In this document: positions 1,530 through 8,523 of the stretch, piece after piece
How positions within the stretch are numbered: the first letter of the stretch is position 1
Layout of the letters: each line of letters starts with the position of its first letter
Made by a program: the position numbers and the translations under genes
The notes under the pieces: generated by a model
Seen by the model: only the letters and a program-made list of their open reading frames with translations
What the model was told of the DNA's origin: nothing
Database searches by the model: none
DNA from: a virus
Virus genome (UHGV): UHGV-0064133
Reading direction: 5' to 3' (one strand)
DNA length: 14,317 bases

Positions 1530-1867
1530 GCTCTCACCCCATATACGCTTAAAATTCGCTTCATAGCCGCGCTGTTGCGGCACTCCTGGCAGATCACGTT
1601 TGCCTCTGTACGCTGCACCAGCTTCGAATTTCCCTTCGGCATAGCCGGGATTGTTTCTGGTGCGTATTTCATGCCGTAATCGGTCAGCCGATAAAGCCGC
1701 TGTCCGTGCTTGCCTTCGAACTCGATCAGGCCGTCTGCAAACAACGTACTTAACGGGCCGGAAATCTTTTTGGTGGTCATGCCGATCATCCTGGCAATGA
1801 AAGCACTATTCAGGCCCGGGTTATTACGCAGGGCTGCAAGAATCTGCCCACGAATTGTTATGGTCAT
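1526..1867 (-). CDS. hypothetical small DNA-binding protein (winged-helix-like)
   Basis: 113-aa ORF; N-terminal ILAALRNNPGLNSAFIARMIGMTTKKISGPLSTLFADGLIE resembles a winged-helix fold; start overlaps the stop of the DnaC-like gene at 1864-1867. Confidence 0.45.
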   Translation of the reverse strand: MTITIRGQILAALRNNPGLNSAFIARMIGMTTKKISGPLSTLFADGLIEFEGKHGQRLYRLTDYGMKYAPETIPAMPKGNSKLVQRTEANVICQECRNSAAMKRILSVYGVRA

Positions 1868-2718
1868 GCTGCCCCCTTAGAACGGTAAGAATCCCACGTG
1901 AATGACAGAGTGCACCCGCCTCCATCGCTCATGCGATCAAGAACGCGTTCGCCGATGAATGCAGCCAGTTCTTCCCGGGTCTGGTTGCTGATCAGGATGG
2001 TCGGCTTCATCCGCTCGTACCGGGTGTTGATGATTTCGAACATGATCAGCTTCTCGGCCTCGCTGCCGAACTGGACGCCAACCTCGTCGATGATCAAAAG
2101 GTCCGGAGTGGTGAAGTGCGCAATCACGTCGTTCTCGCTGCGCGTCGCAGTTTTCGACCACGTTGATTTGAACTCACGGGCAATCTTCAGCGCGGTGGTA
2201 AAAATTACCGGGCTCTGGTGTTTCTCGATGACATCACGGGCGATCGCCAGGGCAAGGTGGTTTTTACCGGTTCCCGGCTTGCCGCACATCACCAGACCAC
2301 CTCCCTGCTTCAGCCGCTCGGGCCACTTAGCGGCATACGCCTGACAAACCCGCAGCGCACGTTCTGACTCCTTGCCAACCGGCTGATAGTTTTCCAGCGT
2401 GCACGTCACAAAGCGCTCAGGGATTTCGAGCTGACGCAGCAGGCGATCGATGTTCTGCTGGCGAGTGCGGTCTTCCCAACGCTTTTTCTCGTCATACAGG
2501 AAGCTCAGCTCATCGCGAAGGCAGCCCGGACAACGAGTCGGCGGCGACGGCAGCTTGATTAGGCTGCTGGTAAGCACGCGTTTACGCTGTTCGTATTCGC
2601 CGTGTTTCTCGCAAAGCACCGTTTCGAAGACGGTCTCGCAGTTAGGGAGTTGCTCTGGCGGCCTGCCGAGAACTTCCAGCATTTTTTCGATAGCGTCGAT
2701 TTTTTCGAGCAGCTCCAT
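1864..2718 (-). CDS. DnaC-like replicative helicase loader (AAA+ ATPase, lambda P functional analogue)
   Basis: Walker A GKPGTGKNHLALAIA and Walker B LLIIDEVG; DnaC/IstB-type architecture. Start set at ATG 2718-2716 (RBS GAGGGA 6 nt upstream, 2 nt after the stop of the O-like gene) rather than the track start at 2736. Confidence 0.85.
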   Translation of the reverse strand: MELLEKIDAIEKMLEVLGRPPEQLPNCETVFETVLCEKHGEYEQRKRVLTSSLIKLPSPPTRCPGCLRDELSFLYDEKKRWEDRTRQQNIDRLLRQLEIPERFVTCTLENYQPVGKESERALRVCQAYAAKWPERLKQGGGLVMCGKPGTGKNHLALAIARDVIEKHQSPVIFTTALKIAREFKSTWSKTATRSENDVIAHFTTPDLLIIDEVGVQFGSEAEKLIMFEIINTRYERMKPTILISNQTREELAAFIGERVLDRMSDGGGCTLSFTWDSYRSKGAA

Positions 2719-2720
2719 AC

Positions 2721-3575
2721 TCAGTCCCTCGCCCATGACGGGATTTCAGTCTGGCCATAGTCCTTGCCAGCGAAGTTCTCGGATACGCGAGTCTGATTGC
2801 GGGCTGGCTGCTTGATGCCTTTCGGTTCAAACAATCCCTGCCAGCCGTTCGCAATGCTCTGGTTGATGATTTCTTCAGGCTGGTATCCGCTGCACTTGCA
2901 ACGCTCAAGCAGGTTGATGGCCTGGGTTACCGTCTGCTGAGACTTAATCGGTTTCTTCAGGTCGCGACGATAATCGACCCATGACTTCCAGACTGAAACT
3001 GACAGCCATTCAGGAAGGTCAACACCAGCCGGATCGAACGAAGCCGGTTTGGGGGATTTAGGGGGTTTATTAATATTGTCTTTATTGTCTTTTGTATGTT
3101 TGTCTTTTGTGTTTACCTTATTTGGGTAAGTGTCGTTACCTGATTCGGGTAAACATTCCTTACCTGATTCAGGTAAATTTACCTCTTTCAGGTAACGTTT
3201 ATTTTCATTACCTGTTTTTGGTAATTTCACCCATTCACTAACCGTTTTGTTAATGCCGACAGAACGCCCGATTTGGGTAAATACTCCACGCTTCACTAAC
3301 GAGCTTTTAGCAGCAGAGCATTTGTGCGGAAGAATGCCGGTGAGGGCAGATAACTGATCGTTACTAACCCAGTCAGCTTTTTTGTTGAAACCGTATGTTT
3401 TACGCATTACAGCCATGAAGACCAGCAACTGATGCTGAGACAATCCAGCCAGCATGACAGCCTCCAGAAGTTCATTGGCAATACGCGTATAGCCATCATC
3501 AAGATCTGCCACGCGCGGCTCCACGACCTGCAAATCAGGCCTGATTGGTGAGATATTGTTAATTGCTAAGTTCAT
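2721..3575 (-). CDS. phage replication initiator / replisome organiser (lambda O-like N-terminus, DnaT/DnaD-like C-terminus)
   Basis: Track ORF 2721..3659 trimmed to ATG at 3575-3573 (RBS GGGGAGG upstream). C-terminal [27 protein letters not shown]...[10 protein letters not shown] matches the primosomal DnaT-like domain common in phage O proteins; iteron array lies inside the gene, as in lambda O. Confidence 0.8.
3113..3224. repeat. origin of replication iterons: five copies of TTACC-N7-GGTAA inside the O-like gene, flanked by an AT-rich tract (3062-3112)
   Basis: Read directly: ttaccttatttgggtaa (3113), ttacctgattcgggtaa (3136), ttacctgattcaggtaa (3160), ttacctctttcaggtaa (3179), ttacctgtttttggtaa (3208); adjacent T-rich segment ttaatattgtctttattgtcttttgtatgtttgtcttttgtg. 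Same architecture as lambda ori inside gene O. Confidence 0.65.
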
Positions 3576-3753
3576 CAGCAGCCTCCCCGCCTTTCTTGAA
3601 GATGATTTCGACACAAAGCAGAATGCAGTTATCGCAGATAGCAACGCCTGGACCGGCAACTATGGTTTTCACGTCGCTATCGATATTGCTTCTGTCGCAG
3701 AAAGAGCATTTATGAGTTGCGTGCTGATTTGCCTTTTCGTTTATTACTGGCAT
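3559..3753 (-). CDS. small ClpX-type C4 zinc-finger protein (stand-alone ClpX N-terminal domain homologue)
   Basis: Sequence [38 protein letters not shown] aligns with the ClpX N-terminal zinc-binding domain ([36 protein letters not shown]). Start set at ATG 3753-3751 (RBS GGGAG 5 nt upstream); the track ORF starts at an upstream GTG (3780). Confidence 0.6.
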
Positions 3754-3838
3754 ACTTACTCCCGTTACTTGGCGTAACACAGTGTGATAAGGGCCTTTGA
3801 AGTGACCGCTTCAAGGGCTTTTTCTTTTCTGGTGCCTC

Positions 3839-4384
3839 TCACATGACCCCCAACATCGAAGTGACCATCGTCATCAGCGGGCCTACCTGCTCCGGCATGA
3901 GGCGGAACAGCGACGCTATACCCTCGCTTACCTCTTTCAGCTTCTGATGCTCTGGAGCGTCCAGCAGCACGGCCTGTTTAGCCTCGGCACACTCTTTCAT
4001 CGCAGAGGCGATCAGCGACATCGTGTCGTTCTGCGGCGCCAGACGGTTTCGGTACTCCAGCGGCAGGACCGACATGATTGCCGGGGCCAGCTGGCGAATG
4101 TTGTTGGCGGCGTATTCGGTATCGCCATCAATCCATCGAAACACTTTCTGCATCTGGCGGTGCGAGTCAGTCGGGATATCCAGACCGGTTCCGCCGGACG
4201 CCCGCCACTCTTCCACGATCAGCGCGGCGACAAATTCACGGCTTCGGCAATCAGCTGCCCAGGCGCGAACAGCAGCGCGGATCCCATCGATGTTTAACGC
4301 CGCGGAATCAGGCTCCCGGCGATTCTGGTAAATCATCGCCGTTGGCGAAAATTTGTTACCTTGTTGATACGCAAGTGAATGCAT
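3839..4384 (-). CDS. phage regulatory protein, CII(CP76)/YdaT-like
   Basis: 181-aa ORF directly downstream of the cro-like gene; RBS AAGGGAAAG; segment QKVFRWIDGDTEYAANNIRQLAPAIMSVLP resembles what I recall of Rac YdaT and the CP76 family. Assignment is from memory, not a search. Confidence 0.55.
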   Translation of the reverse strand: MHSLAYQQGNKFSPTAMIYQNRREPDSAALNIDGIRAAVRAWAADCRSREFVAALIVEEWRASGGTGLDIPTDSHRQMQKVFRWIDGDTEYAANNIRQLAPAIMSVLPLEYRNRLAPQNDTMSLIASAMKECAEAKQAVLLDAPEHQKLKEVSEGIASLFRLMPEQVGPLMTMVTSMLGVM

Positions 4385-4413
4385 TGCTTTCCCTTTCGTG
4401 GTTAGGGCCGCCG

Positions 4414-4635
4414 TTAGGCGGCAAAGATACCTGGATATAGAACTTCGCGAGGAAGCCCCGTCACTTCTTCGTACTTACGCATTTTTGTTACTGGAAGGCT
4501 GCCACCTCGCTTTTTAAGCATATTGATGGCCTGTGGCGTTACGCCGACCTTTTCAGCAAGCACCTTTTGAGAGCCGCCCACTGCATTAATGGCTTTCTCA
4601 AGCGGGGTGCTTGCGTTGGATTCTTTGTTGATCAT
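4414..4635 (-). CDS. Cro/YdaS-like helix-turn-helix regulator
   Basis: 73-aa ORF divergent from the cI-like gene; HTH-like GSQKVLAEKVGVTPQAINMLKK; RBS GGAG 7 nt upstream of the ATG. Confidence 0.7.
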   Translation of the reverse strand: MINKESNASTPLEKAINAVGGSQKVLAEKVGVTPQAINMLKKRGGSLPVTKMRKYEEVTGLPREVLYPGIFAA

Positions 4636-4752
4636 GTTTTGCTCCGCTCATGTGTAATCAACACCATGTTAATTCATGATGTGGATTAAATCAACATTAT
4701 GGTGATGGAAAAAATCCACATGTTGTTTACCATGCATGGAGCGGAGGGTTTT
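4636..4752. promoter_or_regulatory. OR-like divergent operator/promoter region between cro-like and cI-like genes
   Basis: 117-bp AT-rich intergenic region with four copies of the 9-mer AATC[A/C]ACA (4657, 4689, 4714, and inverted at 4679-4687 as atgtggatt); candidate leftward promoter -35 TTGATT / -10 TAACAT on the minus strand (approx. 4694-4666). Confidence 0.55.
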
Positions 4753-5463
4753 ATGAGTAGCATTTCTGAAAGAATTAAATTTTTACTGGCAAGGGAAGGC
4801 TTGAAGCAGCGGGATTTGGCTGAGGCTTTGTCGACTAGCCCACAGACCGTCAACAACTGGATAAAAAGAGACGCGTTAAGTCGTGAGGCGGCGCAACAAA
4901 TATCTGAAAAATTCGGTTATTCTCTTGACTGGTTATTAAATGGAGAGGGTTCTCCAAAGAAGGATCTGGAGAGCAACATCCCGCCAGAGTCTGAGTGGGG
5001 AGTTGTTGATGCATGGGATAAAGACACCCCGCTTCCTGTTGATGAGGTTGAAGTGCCATTTCTTAAGGATATTGAATTTGCGTGTGGTGATGGTCGAGTT
5101 CAGTGCGAAGACCACAATGGATTTAAGCTGAGATTCTCCAAGGCAACGCTCAGAAGAGTGGGTGCAAATAGTGATGGTTCTGGAGTGCTTTGCTTTCCCG
5201 CTTCTGGTGACAGCATGGAGCCCGTTATTCCTGACGGCGCAACGGTAGCAGTCGATACAGGCAACAAGCGGATTATTGACGGCGAACTCTATGCTATTAA
5301 CCAGGGCGATTTAAAGCGCATAAAGCAGCTTTATCGAAAGCCTGGTGGGAAGCTATTAATACGAAGCATCAATCGCGATTATGACGATGAAGAGGCTGAT
5401 GAGGCAGATGTCGAGATAATCGGTTTTGTGTTCTGGTACTCGGTATTGCGATATCGCCGATAA
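4753..5463 (+). CDS. CI-like prophage repressor, XRE-type HTH plus S24 (LexA-like) autopeptidase domain
   Basis: N-terminal HTH (LKQRDLAEALSTSPQTVNNWIKR); C-terminal S24 motifs GDSMEP (Ser nucleophile) and ELYAINQGDLKRIKQL (Lys). Start set at ATG 4753 (RBS GGAGGG 4 nt upstream) rather than the track start at 4699. Confidence 0.85.
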   Translation: MSSISERIKFLLAREGLKQRDLAEALSTSPQTVNNWIKRDALSREAAQQISEKFGYSLDWLLNGEGSPKKDLESNIPPESEWGVVDAWDKDTPLPVDEVEVPFLKDIEFACGDGRVQCEDHNGFKLRFSKATLRRVGANSDGSGVLCFPASGDSMEPVIPDGATVAVDTGNKRIIDGELYAINQGDLKRIKQLYRKPGGKLLIRSINRDYDDEEADEADVEIIGFVFWYSVLRYRR

Positions 5464-5468
5464 TTTTA

Positions 5469-5581
5469 GTGGCCTGAAGAGACGTTTGGGTGATAAGAGA
5501 ATATCTGATAGTAGGCGTGGTTACTTTGCTCTCGGTTGTTGCGATCGTGCTTATGGTGGCCTGATGAGACGTTTGGGTGAT
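5469..5581. repeat. pair of 26-bp direct repeats (one mismatch) between the repressor gene and the KilA-N gene
   Basis: gtggcctgaagagacgtttgggtgat at 5469-5494 and gtggcctgatgagacgtttgggtgat at 5556-5581, 87 bp start to start. Confidence 0.6.
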
Positions 5582-5612: not shown

Positions 5613-6374
5613 ATGACACAGTTTCAACTTGCATTAATCGCCAGAGAAGTTGATGGAGAAGTCATCCATCTTCGCACCAAAGACGGTTACATCAATGCCA
5701 CCGCAATGTGCAAGTCTGCTGGGAAGCTACTTGCTGACTATACACGACTAAAAACAACGCAAGATTTTTTTGATGAATTATCCCGCGATATGGGGATTCC
5801 CATATCGGAATTAATTCAATCATTTAAAGGCGGAAGAGCAGAGAATCAAGGGACTTGGGTTCATCCAGACATCGCAATTAACTTAGCTCAGTGGCTATCT
5901 CCAAAATTTGCAGTGCAAGTATCGAGATGGGTGCGTGAGTGGATGTCAGGCGAAAGAGCGCCTGCCGAACTCCCTATCCACCTTAAGCGGTATATGACAA
6001 ACCGAGGCAGGGTTCCTCATACGCACTTTTCTATGCTTAATGAACTGACGTTTAACCTGGTTGCGCCACTTGAGCAGGCAGGATATACGCTGCCAGAAAA
6101 AATGGTCCCTGATATTTCAGAAGGTAGGGTTTTCTCGCAATGGCTTCGTGAAAACCGGGGTGTTGAGCCGAAGACGTTCCCAACATATAACCATGAGTAC
6201 CCAGATGGCCGGACATTCCCGGTACGTCTATACCCAAACGAATATCTTGCAGATTTCAAACAACACTTCAACGAAGTGTGGCTGCCTCAGTACGCTCCTA
6301 AATATTTTGCAGAACGAGACCAAAGGGCATTGACGTTGATTGAGAAAATCATGTTGCCTGACCTTGATTCCTAA
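5613..6374 (+). CDS. KilA-N domain protein with uncharacterised C-terminal domain (immunity-region cargo)
   Basis: N-terminal ~110 aa carry the KilA-N/APSES-like signature (YINATAMCKSAGK ... GTWVHPDIAINLAQWLSPKFAVQVSRWV); C-terminal ~140 aa (FPTYNHEYPDGRTFPVRLYPNEYLADFKQHF...) matches nothing I recognise. RBS AGGA; followed by a terminator hairpin. Confidence 0.7.
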   Translation: MTQFQLALIAREVDGEVIHLRTKDGYINATAMCKSAGKLLADYTRLKTTQDFFDELSRDMGIPISELIQSFKGGRAENQGTWVHPDIAINLAQWLSPKFAVQVSRWVREWMSGERAPAELPIHLKRYMTNRGRVPHTHFSMLNELTFNLVAPLEQAGYTLPEKMVPDISEGRVFSQWLRENRGVEPKTFPTYNHEYPDGRTFPVRLYPNEYLADFKQHFNEVWLPQYAPKYFAERDQRALTLIEKIMLPDLDS

Positions 6375-6382
6375 ATGTTATA

Positions 6383-6405
6383 CCCGGCCACCAAGCCGGG
6401 GTTTT
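6383..6405 (+). terminator. putative intrinsic terminator between convergent genes
   Basis: Stem cccggc (6383-6388) / gccggg (6395-6400), loop caccaa, followed by gtttta; lies 9 nt after the KilA-N stop and abuts the 3' end of the convergent small ORF. Confidence 0.5.
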
Positions 6406-6601
6406 ACTGCCCTTTCCGCACTATCTCAGCTGCATCCCTGTTCACACCCTTACCTATCACGTTTCCCGTTTCCTTCCGGTACCGTTCCAGCTTGTCGATG
6501 ATGTTTTGCTGGGTCATAGGTAAATCTGCCAGTGACAACTCCATGACCGCCCGCCCCATGGCGTGAACCATCATGTTCACTCTTTCTTCATCCAAGCCCA
6601 T
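6404..6601 (-). CDS. hypothetical small protein (65 aa) convergent with the KilA-N gene
   Basis: Strong RBS AAGGAG 6 nt upstream of ATG 6601-6599 on the minus strand; hydrophilic sequence MGLDEERVNMMVHAMGRAVMELSLADLPMTQQNIIDKLERYRKETG...; sits just inside the OL-like operator cluster. No family recognised. Confidence 0.5.
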   Translation of the reverse strand: MGLDEERVNMMVHAMGRAVMELSLADLPMTQQNIIDKLERYRKETGNVIGKGVNRDAAEIVRKGQ

Positions 6602-8383: not shown

Positions 8384-8523
8384 GCGAAAGCCCACCGAAG
8401 TGGGCCCGCCATGTCCGGCCTCACCGACCAAAGTTACACCGGAAACAACATTAAAACCAAAGTTAACCCAATGGGCGCTATCAATGGTCCGGGGATTCTA
8501 ACACCCAAAAAAGAGGATCTCAC

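What the first reader, a model, noticed from the sequence alone, without database searches (positions are those of the whole stretch)
3839..4635. Cro/YdaS-like and CII/YdaT-like gene pair at the head of the early-right operon
Immediately downstream of the PR-like promoter is the arrangement seen in Rac, where derepression of ydaS/ydaT is toxic to the host. Here the pair is followed by the extra ClpX zinc-finger gene. Whether these act as lysis-lysogeny regulators or growth inhibitors is open.
Basis: partly seen in the sequence, partly recalled or inferred. Interest (0 to 1): 0.35.

Follow-up and report, generated by a model that had tools for sequence, protein, structure and literature searches.

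The report
phi80-type cro and cII regulator genes
These two genes are the well-known Cro and CII lysis–lysogeny regulators of a phage-phi80-type prophage, so the finding is real but ordinary; comparing relatives also suggests where CII binds and which promoter it turns on.

Summary
Both ORFs exist exactly as described: a 73-aa HTH gene (4414-4635, minus strand) and a 181-aa YdaT-family gene (3839-4384, minus strand). They are the first genes after pR and lie opposite a cI repressor gene.

They are not an unknown Rac-like pair. The region is the phage phi80 immunity region. Cro is 72/73 identical to phi80 gp30, CI is 97% identical, and the OR operators, pR and pRM are almost base-for-base the same. 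CII is 99% identical to phage HK225 CII and 64% to phi80 CII. The oop-like M3 RNA is also conserved. Rac YdaS and YdaT are only about 33-35% identical.

The predicted CII fold matches only the solved YdaT structures. Published work shows that YdaS/YdaT are Cro/CII analogues rather than a toxin-antitoxin pair.

The ClpX zinc-finger gene belongs to the downstream replication module (zf-O-DnaC-like), not to this pair.

One by-product may be new. In every YdaT-family locus I examined, an inverted-repeat box is followed after exactly 20 nt by a TAnnnT hexamer, antisense to cII (window 4319-4336 and 4357-4362). This includes the footprinted Rac box. The geometry implies a class II, CII-activated pRE-like promoter.

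Novelty: already known. Interest: low.

The parts
4753..5463 (+). cI repressor (236 aa; HTH + S24 peptidase), phi80 immunity type
   Evidence: 97% identical to phi80 CI. Pfam Peptidase_S24, Phage_CI_repr and HTH_3. The start is set by alignment to the phi80 annotation.
4656..4731 (.). OR region. Three CI operators (4656-4674, 4689-4707, 4713-4731). pR: -35 at 4689-4694 and -10 at 4666-4671, minus strand. pRM: -35 at 4705-4710 and -10 at 4728-4733, plus strand.
   Evidence: Transferred from the phi80 GenBank annotation through alignment A1, in which only 2 bases of the intergenic region differ. The direct repeat AATCAAC... at 4656 and 4689 was found independently. The generic promoter scan did not pick up these weak hexamers.
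4414..4635 (-). cro-like gene (73 aa HTH), equivalent to phi80 gene 30
   Evidence: 72/73 identical to phi80 gp30, annotated 'Cro-like transcriptional regulator'. HTH_3 30.9 bits; YdaS_toxin 29.7 bits, just under the cut-off. 33% identity over 46 aa to Rac YdaS.
4407..4422 (.). GC hairpin GCCGCC-N4-GGCGGC with the cro stop codon in its loop; function unknown
   Evidence: Seen directly in the sequence and unique in the window as a perfect match. It stays attached to cII when the cro gene is a different one, in 3 of 4 module types. No U-run follows it, and its fold z-score is only -1.2.
3839..4384 (-). cII gene, YdaT family (181 aa). Disordered N-terminal 28 aa, then a POU-like HTH domain (about 32-112), then long C-terminal helices.
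   Evidence: YdaT_toxin 95.9 bits. PHROG 163 at 3.7e-56. 99% identical to HK225 CII and 64% to phi80 CII. AF2 model with mean pLDDT 80. The only Foldseek hits are 3c4r and 8bt1, the YdaT structures, with probability 1.0.
4319..4336 (+). Predicted CII (YdaT) box: GCGATT-CTGGTA-AATCAT. On the cII sense strand it reads ATGATT-TACCAG-AATCGC, codons 17-22.
   Evidence: 10/12 match to the footprinted Rac YdaT-box ATGATT-N6-AATCAA (PMC11879457). The half-site cores GA/ATCA are invariant across 14 diverged allele types while the spacer varies. This is an inference; binding was not tested.
4357..4362 (+). Predicted -10 hexamer TACCTT of a CII-dependent pRE-like promoter. Predicted start about 4369, reading towards cro (antisense) and cI.
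   Evidence: TAnnnT lies exactly 20 nt after the box in 116/116 distinct family sequences. The same holds in Rac, a CP-933P-like phage, a Klebsiella phage and mEp237. The combined pattern occurs once in the window and once in the Rac locus, at the footprinted box; about 0.05 are expected by chance.
3764..3823 (+). M3 RNA, the oop-like antisense RNA. It is antisense to the cII-to-next-gene spacer, with a terminator hairpin at 3789-3822 plus a T-run.
   Evidence: Aligns to the annotated phi80 'M3 RNA; homolog of lambda oop RNA'. Terminator scan hit with a 15-bp stem. Fold -27.2 kcal/mol, z = -3.2. Possible promoter TTGCCT-16-CATACT at 3729-3756, read from the sequence.
3559..3753 (-). ClpX zinc-finger-only protein (64 aa), first gene of the replication module
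   Evidence: zf-C4_ClpX 45 bits. The identical protein always sits directly upstream of, and overlaps by 17 nt, a 284-aa O-like gene followed by a DnaC-like gene. Either a lambda-type CII or a YdaT-type CII can lie upstream. It is absent from phi80 and HK225, where homology ends at its start codon.
2721..3575 (-). Replication initiator, O-like (284 aa from ATG 3575)
   Evidence: Phage_rep_O 115 bits and PHROG 678. The start is set by the gene calls in related contigs.
1864..2736 (-). DnaC-like helicase loader
   Evidence: IstB_IS21 / Bac_DnaA. PHROG 50 at 1.2e-84.

Best explanation

How the switch is expected to work:
1. In a lysogen, CI (4753-5463) binds the three OR operators and shuts off pR.
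2. After infection or induction, pR transcribes cro, cII, the zinc-finger gene and the replication genes.
3. Cro (73-aa HTH) binds the same operators and turns down pRM and, later, pR. This favours lytic growth.
4. CII is a YdaT-family protein. It has a POU-like HTH domain followed by long helices that form a tetramer in the solved relatives. It favours lysogeny by activating a leftward promoter that makes antisense cro RNA and cI mRNA.

Inferred location of that promoter. My reading is that CII binds the imperfect inverted repeat at 4319-4336, inside its own codons 17-22. The repeat would be centred at about -41.5 of a promoter with -10 TACCTT (4357-4362) and a start near 4369 on the plus strand. 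This is class II activator geometry.

The M3 (oop-like) RNA, antisense to the spacer after cII, probably trims cII expression.

Shown here: the gene identities, the phi80-type operators and promoters (by alignment to an annotated phage), the fold, and the conserved box-20 nt-TAnnnT geometry.

Inferred: DNA binding, activation, the promoter start, and the roles in the lysis-lysogeny decision.
For: Identity with a working phage's switch:
- DNA is 95.5% identical to HK225 and 90% to phi80 across cI-cro-cII.
- The phi80 annotation lists cI, operators, pR, pRM, a Cro-like gene 30, cII and M3 RNA in the same order.
- Cro is 72/73 identical, CI 97%, and CII 64% to phi80 and 99% to HK225.
- The intergenic region is nearly identical.

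Family and fold:
- Pfam and PHROG hits.
- PDB sequence hits to 3c4r and 8bt1.
- The AF2 model matches only those two YdaT entries, with TM up to 0.73.
- The recognition-helix motif QK-x-FRW is invariant in the family. It corresponds to the H56/R57/W58 region needed for DNA binding in Rac YdaT (PMC11879457).

Function of relatives:
- YdaS and YdaT of CP-933P behave as Cro and CII analogues, and YdaT activates a PRE-like promoter (PMC8630535).
- YdaT binds TTGATT-N6-AATCAA as a tetramer (PMC9986795).
- Rac YdaT binds ATGATT-N6-AATCAA at its own start codon and raises racR expression 29-fold (PMC11879457).

The box and promoter:
- The box, then 20 nt, then TAnnnT is conserved in 116 distinct phi80-type sequences with variable DNA between the elements.
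- It is also found in Rac, a CP-933P-like phage, a Klebsiella phage and mEp237.
- A pattern built from the phi80-type family hits the 7-kb Rac locus once, at the footprinted box (0.04 expected).
Against: - Nothing here was tested experimentally for this prophage.
- The window's own box is one of the weakest in the family: left half GCGATT, -10 TACCTT.
- Published work places the YdaT-dependent promoter elsewhere. In Rac it is PracR4, predicted with BProm about 190 bp from the box. In CP-933P it is PRE933P, upstream of the box. My class II promoter therefore disagrees with those assignments. In what I read, however, neither paper mapped the YdaT-dependent 5' end.
- The conserved positions lie in coding DNA in the phi80-type family, so protein-level constraint cannot be fully excluded. 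Against this, the region is predicted to be disordered, and in Rac the same elements lie outside the ORF.
- I could not read the primary phi80 genetics papers (Ogawa et al. 1988; Rotman et al. 2012). The phi80 cII role rests on GenBank annotation and on my own recollection.
Confidence: 0.85

Rival explanations
1. The pair is mainly a host growth inhibitor or toxin-type module, as the Pfam names (YdaS_toxin, YdaT_toxin) and the Rac phenotype suggest. CI would then serve chiefly to keep the toxic genes silent.
For: The Pfam family names. Derepression or overexpression of Rac ydaS/ydaT is lethal and causes filamentation (PMC5700377, PMC5700373, PMC11879457). Overexpression of CP-933P YdaS slows growth (PMC8630535).
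Against: - The genes sit inside a complete switch that is nearly identical to that of phi80, a working temperate phage.
- They are not a stand-alone two-gene operon. Transcription continues into the replication genes.
- CP-933P YdaT is not toxic (PMC8630535).
- Rac YdaT toxicity works through transcriptional activation of host rcsA (PMC11879457).
- Lambda CII is also toxic when overproduced and is not called a toxin (PMC5917428).
- The fold is a DNA-binding HTH.
Confidence: 0.07
2. CII acts here mainly as a repressor or roadblock, not an activator. By binding the box inside its own coding sequence, and possibly the OR region, it would limit pR read-through into cII and the replication genes.
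For: The candidate box lies within the cII ORF, 48 nt after the start codon. Rac YdaT also binds the racR-ydaS intergenic region over the PydaST promoter (PMC11879457). The CP-933P paper calls YdaT a 'CII repressor' equivalent and reports an extended footprint of about 95 bp (PMC9986795).
Against: In Rac, ydaT expression barely changed when the box was bound, while expression in the reverse direction rose 29-fold (PMC11879457). A roadblock model does not explain the strictly conserved TAnnnT 20 nt from the box on the antisense strand. The two roles could coexist.
Confidence: 0.08

Closest known systems
Phage phi80 early-right region: gene 30 (Cro) and cII (GenBank X13065, JX871397); phage HK225 (JQ086371)
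   Same: - Same gene order: cI, OR/pR/pRM, cro, cII, M3 RNA.
- Cro is 72/73 identical and CI 97% identical to phi80, and the operators and promoters are nearly identical.
- CII is 99% identical to HK225 CII.
- OL, pL, nutL and N to the left of cI are also phi80-like.
   Different: - CII is only 64% identical to phi80's own CII. The N-terminal DNA-binding half has diverged, while the last 65 or so residues are about 95% identical.
- The replication module differs. Here it is a zinc-finger gene, a 284-aa O-like gene and a DnaC-like gene; phi80 and HK225 have gene 15 (O-like) and gene 14 (P-like). Homology ends at the start codon of the first replication gene.
- A BstA-like gene replaces phi80 gene 40A downstream of cI.
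YdaS/YdaT of cryptic prophage CP-933P of E. coli O157:H7 (PDB 8bt1; 3c4r is a close homologue)
   Same: - Same position between the repressor gene and the O gene.
- Same fold by structure search (TM up to 0.73).
- Same QKxFRW recognition-helix motif.
- Same box-20 nt-TAnnnT geometry in a 95%-identical phage homologue.
- The published function is Cro-like and CII-like (PMC8630535, PMC9986795).
   Different: - About 24-27% sequence identity.
- The CP-933P protein is 141 aa. It lacks the 28-aa N-terminal extension and the two extra C-terminal helices.
- Its box overlaps the start codon rather than codons 17-22.
- The repressor there is PaaR2, linked to a toxin-antitoxin pair, not an S24-type CI.
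YdaS/YdaT of the Rac prophage of E. coli K-12
   Same: Same family and gene order. The YdaT-box ATGATT-N6-AATCAA matches the window's ATGATT-N6-AATCGC at 10/12 positions. The same 20-nt spacing to a -10-like hexamer is present.
   Different: Only 35% identity over 83 aa for YdaT and 33% over 46 aa for YdaS. The repressor is RacR, not an S24 CI. Rac is defective, and the toxicity and rcsA cross-talk described for it have not been shown for the phi80 type.
Lambda Cro and CII with pRE and oop RNA
   Same: Same logic. Cro and CII are the first genes of the pR operon. The CII site and pRE are embedded in the 5' end of the cII gene, and an antisense oop-like RNA lies after cII.
   Different: There is no Pfam match to Phage_CII (PF05269) or to lambda Cro (PF09048). 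The box is a 6-N6-6 inverted repeat, not the TTGC-N6-TTGC direct repeat. M3 RNA stops short of the cII stop codon, whereas oop overlaps the cII 3' end (the lambda details are from my own knowledge).

Membership tests
phi80-type immunity region (imm80) | CI repressor and Cro of phi80 specificity, with the phi80 OR operators | tested here: met
   CI 229/236 identical, Cro 72/73 identical, and only 2 base differences in the cro-cI intergenic region. OL/pL/nutL are also conserved.
YdaT / CII-like activators (Pfam PF06254, PHROG 163) | Profile match above the curated threshold | tested here: met
   95.9 bits against a cut-off of 21. PHROG 163 at 3.7e-56 over the full profile.
YdaT / CII-like activators (Pfam PF06254, PHROG 163) | POU-like HTH domain followed by a long helix (fold of 8bt1/3c4r) | tested here: met
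   In the AF2 model, residues 30-110 have pLDDT of 87 or more. The Foldseek top six hits are all 3c4r or 8bt1 chains, with probability 1.0 and target-normalised TM 0.64-0.73. The next hit has E = 1.4.
YdaT / CII-like activators (Pfam PF06254, PHROG 163) | Conserved recognition-helix residues (R-W, needed for DNA binding in Rac YdaT) | tested here: met
   Q79, K80, F82, R83 and D86 are invariant in 29 family members, and position 84 is W in the window, F in the phi80-type members. They align with QKIFRW of 8bt1 and HRW of Rac (PMC11879457).
YdaT / CII-like activators (Pfam PF06254, PHROG 163) | Tetramer that binds a 6-N6-6 inverted repeat and activates a leftward promoter | not testable with these tools
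   There is only a candidate box (4319-4336) and a -10 (4357-4362), both supported by comparative conservation.
YdaS / Cro-like HTH (Pfam PF15943) | Profile match above the curated threshold | tested here: inconclusive
   29.7 bits against a cut-off of 30. HTH_3 is above its threshold. Pairwise E = 3e-5 to Rac YdaS over 46 aa.
YdaS / Cro-like HTH (Pfam PF15943) | First gene after pR, divergent from the repressor gene | tested here: met
   ORF map and the phi80 annotation.
Type II toxin-antitoxin pair | Self-contained, autoregulated two-gene operon encoding a toxin and its neutralising partner | tested here: not met
   The pair heads a long pR operon that runs on into the replication genes and is controlled by a separate CI repressor. 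The same CII is found with at least four unrelated cro genes, which does not fit a cognate pair. Toxicity itself cannot be tested here.
Lambda CII (Pfam PF05269) and lambda Cro (PF09048) | Sequence-profile membership | tested here: not met
   No hit at E <= 0.01. The genes are functional analogues, not family members.

The most novel reading that the evidence does not exclude
Across the whole YdaT/CII family, the CII-dependent establishment promoter would be a class II promoter that directly abuts the YdaT-box: box centred at -41.5, with a TAnnnT -10 exactly 20 nt away. In the phi80-type branch, both elements would be written into the translated but disordered first 28 codons of cII. This would revise the promoter assignments published for Rac (PracR4, about 190 bp away) and for CP-933P (PRE933P upstream of the box).
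Probability: 0.5. Interest if true: 0.35.

Novelty: already known. Interest (0 to 1): 0.12.

Why it matters
For the genome scan, this finding can be closed. It is a textbook lambdoid switch of phi80 immunity type, and the 'toxin' labels in Pfam are misleading for it.

Three smaller points have some value:
- The same CII allele is combined with at least four different cro/cI modules, so cII with its 5' control region behaves as an exchangeable unit of its own.
- The comparative box-20 nt-TAnnnT signature gives a precise, cheap-to-test prediction for where YdaT-type CII proteins start establishment transcription. The two experimental papers on Rac and CP-933P left this point unsettled.
- The zinc-finger gene belongs to the replication module, and any hypothesis about it should be framed there.

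Tried and rejected
- A search for the published box TTGATT-N6-AATCAA with up to 3 mismatches gave 7 window hits against 7.7 expected, so it is uninformative on its own. Only the family comparison made the 4319-4336 hit meaningful.
- The generic sigma-70 scan found no promoter in 3400-5000. It missed even pR and pRM, so it could not be used to look for pRE.
- I asked whether the hairpin at 4407-4422 is a nutR boxB. The phi80 nutL core CACGTAAACGTG and boxA occur only at nutL (6807, 6860), not after cro, so I rejected that. The hairpin is not an intrinsic terminator either, since no U-run follows and z = -1.2.
- Rfam has no family covering this region. The only window hit is isrB at 8385-8482.
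- The PDB sequence search for Cro gave only spurious TAL-effector repeats.
- I could not obtain Rotman et al. 2012 or the Ogawa et al. 1988 papers. Searches for phi80 cII genetics found nothing useful.
- My first look-up of the zinc-finger protein used the wrong start (3756) and found one fragment. I repeated it with the ATG at 3753.
- A literature search for phage-encoded ClpX zinc-finger proteins found nothing relevant.
Full report
**Observation.** The window has a 73-aa ORF at 4414-4635 and a 181-aa ORF at 3839-4384, both on the minus strand. These are exactly the coordinates given. The small protein is a helix-turn-helix protein: Pfam HTH_3 at 30.9 bits, and YdaS_toxin at 29.7 bits against a cut-off of 30. 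The larger protein is a clear member of the YdaT family (95.9 bits against 21) and of PHROG 163, 'CII-like transcriptional activator' (3.7e-56 over the full profile). Upstream and divergent lies a CI-type repressor gene (HTH plus S24 peptidase). Downstream lie a ClpX zinc-finger ORF, an O-like initiator and a DnaC-like loader.

**What it is.** Megablast shows that 3751-5500 is 95.5% identical to phage HK225 and 90% identical to the immunity region of phage phi80. About 125 complete E. coli genomes carry it, including K-12 laboratory strains with phi80 prophages. The phi80 records annotate, in the same order:
- cI
- three OR operators
- pR and pRM
- gene 30 ('Cro-like transcriptional regulator')
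- cII ('CII decision making protein')
- 'M3 RNA, homolog of lambda oop RNA'
- replication genes 15 and 14

Protein comparisons give the following:

| Protein | Compared with | Identity |
|---|---|---|
| Cro | phi80 gp30 | 72/73 |
| CI | phi80 CI | 229/236 |
| CII | HK225 CII | 179/181 |
| CII | phi80 CII | 64% |
| CII | Rac YdaT | 35% over 83 aa |
| Cro | Rac YdaS | 33% over 46 aa |

The cro-cI intergenic DNA differs from phi80 at two bases, so the annotated elements transfer directly:
- Operators at 4656-4674, 4689-4707 and 4713-4731.
- pR = TTGATT-17-TAACAT, with -35 at 4689-4694 and -10 at 4666-4671 on the minus strand.
- pRM at 4705-4710 and 4728-4733.

The cI start is ATG 4753, not the 4699 listed mechanically. 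OL, pL, nutL and an N-like ORF to the left of cI are also phi80-like. This is therefore a prophage with phi80 immunity, and the pair is its cro and cII. Rac is a much more distant relative.

**The CII protein.** Homologues of 177-183 aa are common in prophages of Enterobacter, Citrobacter, Klebsiella, Escherichia and relatives, and all cover the full 181 residues. The long ORF is the real one, for two reasons. Unrelated upstream sequences each provide a Shine-Dalgarno sequence before ATG 4384, and the reading frame stays open in 116 distinct variants. The 1988 phi80 record annotated a shorter, 132-aa version.

An AlphaFold2 model built from 29 sequences has mean pLDDT 80. It shows:
- Residues 1-28: no confident structure.
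- Residues about 32-112: a compact helical domain.
- Helices 121-140, 145-162 and 164-177 after that.

Foldseek against the PDB returns only chains of 3c4r and 8bt1, the YdaT structures, at probability 1.0 and target TM 0.64-0.73. Everything else has E > 1. The sequence search of the PDB finds the same two entries. The recognition-helix motif QK-x-FRW is invariant or nearly so in the family. It aligns with the residues whose mutation abolishes DNA binding in Rac YdaT (PMC11879457).

**What is known about the family.**
- Jobling (PMC5917428) argued from gene context that YdaS/YdaT are Cro/CII.
- Jurenas et al. (PMC8630535) showed that CP-933P YdaS and the repressor PaaR2 compete for the intergenic operators. 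They also showed that YdaT is not toxic and switches on a PRE-like promoter, and they noted that YdaT is homologous to phi80 CII.
- Prolic-Kalinsek et al. (PMC9986795) solved the structure. It is a tetramer through a four-helix bundle, with POU-like HTH domains, and it footprints on TTGATT-N6-AATCAA.
- Wons et al. (PMC11879457) footprinted Rac YdaT on ATGATT-CATGAA-AATCAA, which overlaps the ydaT start codon. They showed a box-dependent 29-fold rise in leftward expression towards racR, and they traced YdaT toxicity to activation of host rcsA.

**Modularity.** The exact 181-aa CII is recorded in 275 blocks of the assembly collection. It is found next to at least four different cro/cI pairs: the phi80 type, a lambda-type Cro, an HTH_31 type and an 83-aa YdaS type. 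Alignment of these junctions shows that homology starts at the cII start codon in one case. In three cases it starts just before a GC hairpin (4407-4422) that holds the cro stop codon in its loop. Compared with phi80, the N-terminal DNA-binding half of CII has diverged while the C-terminal 65 or so residues are nearly identical. So cII, together with a short 5' flank, is an exchangeable unit. That does not fit a cognate toxin-antitoxin pair.

**The zinc-finger gene.** Homology to phi80 and HK225 ends at 3751, which is the start codon of the next gene. The likely product is 64 aa from ATG 3753. The identical protein occurs in 74 blocks. It is always immediately upstream of a 284-aa O-like gene, which it overlaps by 17 nt, followed by a DnaC-like gene. 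The gene upstream of it can be either a lambda-type CII (PF05269) or a YdaT-type CII. None of the eight contexts retrieved for the CII protein had it. It therefore belongs to the replication module and not to the cro/cII pair.

**How CII probably works here (inference).** On the cII sense strand, codons 17-22 read ATGATT-TACCAG-AATCGC. This matches the Rac box at 10/12 positions. I collected 264 family loci from viral contigs and compared 116 distinct 5' regions. The results are:
- At this position every allele has an inverted-repeat-like element. Examples are CTGATT-N6-AATCAG (a perfect palindrome in two allele classes), TTGATA-N6-AATCAG, and ATGATA-N6-GCTCAA in phi80.
- The cores GA and ATCA are invariant, while the 6-nt spacer varies freely.
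- Exactly 20 nt further on, on the strand antisense to cII, every sequence has a TAnnnT hexamer: TATTGT, TACCTT, TACTCT, TATTAT, TATTTT, TATTCT, TACTTT or TATCCT. The 20 nt in between are poorly conserved.

The same layout is present in other branches of the family:

| Locus | Box | Hexamer 20 nt away |
|---|---|---|
| Rac (footprinted box) | TTGATT-TTCATG-AATCAT | TATGAT |
| Phage with a 95% CP-933P-like YdaT | TTGATT-TTCATG-AATCCC | TATGAT |
| Klebsiella phage | CTGATT-TTCATG-ATTCAC | TAGCAT |
| mEp237 | TTGATT-GCGATT-TATCAT | TATTTT |

A pattern written from the phi80-type family (GA-N9-ATCA-N21-TAnnnT) occurs once in the 7-kb Rac locus, at that box, with 0.04 expected by chance. It occurs once in the window, with 0.06 expected. 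The window case is partly circular, because the window belongs to the family from which the pattern was drawn.

Box centre to hexamer centre is 32 bp, which puts the box at about -41.5. That is the standard geometry for a class II activator. I therefore propose a CII-dependent pRE-like promoter with box 4319-4336, -10 at 4357-4362 and a start near 4369 on the plus strand. Its transcript would run antisense through the first codons of cII, the hairpin and cro, and then sense into cI.

In the phi80-type branch, both elements lie inside translated codons of a segment with no confident structure. This explains why I18 and the [MLV]-I-x-x-N-[QHR] motif are conserved there. Lambda is arranged in a comparable way, with the CII site inside the 5' end of cII (my own knowledge).

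This proposal differs from the published promoter assignments. PracR4 in Rac was predicted with BProm and lies about 190 bp from the box. PRE933P in CP-933P lies upstream of the box. In the sections I read, the YdaT-dependent 5' end was not mapped, and the reporter fragments contained the site I propose.

**M3 RNA.** The plus-strand segment 3764-3823 aligns with the annotated phi80 M3 RNA. It ends in a 15-bp hairpin followed by a T-run. Its -10 (CATACT, 3751-3756) is shared with phi80. Its -35 falls in the swapped replication module, yet a TTGCCT hexamer sits there at a 16-nt spacing (read from the sequence). M3 is complementary to the spacer between cII and the next gene. It stops about 15 nt short of the cII stop codon.

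**Verdict.** The comparison with Rac and the 'open question' understate what is known: this is the cro-cII pair of a phi80-immunity prophage, which is already known. The only possibly new element is the comparative prediction of the CII box and the promoter next to it, which can be tested with a few reporter constructs.

Noticed in passing
window 3559-3753 (-), with 2721-3575 and 1864-2736: A 64-aa protein consisting only of a ClpX-type zinc finger is translationally coupled to the O-like initiator (17-nt overlap). It travels with the O + DnaC-like replication module whichever type of cII lies upstream. From my own knowledge, the ClpX zinc-binding domain binds lambda O, and free domain inhibits degradation of O by ClpXP. 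A decoy that protects the initiator is therefore an obvious hypothesis. It was not tested.
   Followed up: partly
window 5613-6374 (+): A BstA-like abortive-infection gene sits directly downstream of cI (PHROG 6287 at 2e-82; KilA-N domain, with BstA_C in related contigs). It takes the place of phi80 gene 40A.
   Followed up: no
window 4407-4422: A GC hairpin, GCCGCC-TAAC-GGCGGC, has the cro stop codon (TAA) in its loop. Three unrelated cro genes all end inside this same hairpin, which stays attached to cII. It is neither an intrinsic terminator nor the phi80 nut core. Its function is unknown.
   Followed up: partly
window 3839-4384 compared with L001 (phi80) 2589-3131: There is mosaicism inside cII. 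The first 7 codons and the last 65 or so codons are nearly identical to phi80, while the DNA-binding half is strongly diverged. The same exact CII allele is paired with at least four different cro/cI modules in public assemblies.
   Followed up: partly
L004 (E. coli K-12 Rac) 3652-3695, minus strand: The experimentally footprinted Rac YdaT-box is followed after exactly 20 nt by a near-consensus -10 (TATGAT) pointing towards ydaS and racR. This suggests a promoter directly next to the box, rather than or in addition to the published PracR4 about 190 bp away.
   Followed up: partly
window 8385-8482 (-): An Rfam hit to isrB, an Hfq-binding sRNA: 38.2 bits against a gathering score of 35, E = 6e-4. 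It lies between early-left genes of the prophage.
   Followed up: no
L003 (X13065) 1866-2264: The 1988 phi80 record annotates cII as 132 aa. The 2012 genome record and all family members support about 180 aa. The short version would cut off the first helices of the DNA-binding domain.
   Followed up: partly
window 6404-6601 (-): A 65-aa ORF with no family match lies between the BstA-like gene and OL. A 65-aa gene in the same position recurs in many related prophage contexts.
   Followed up: no
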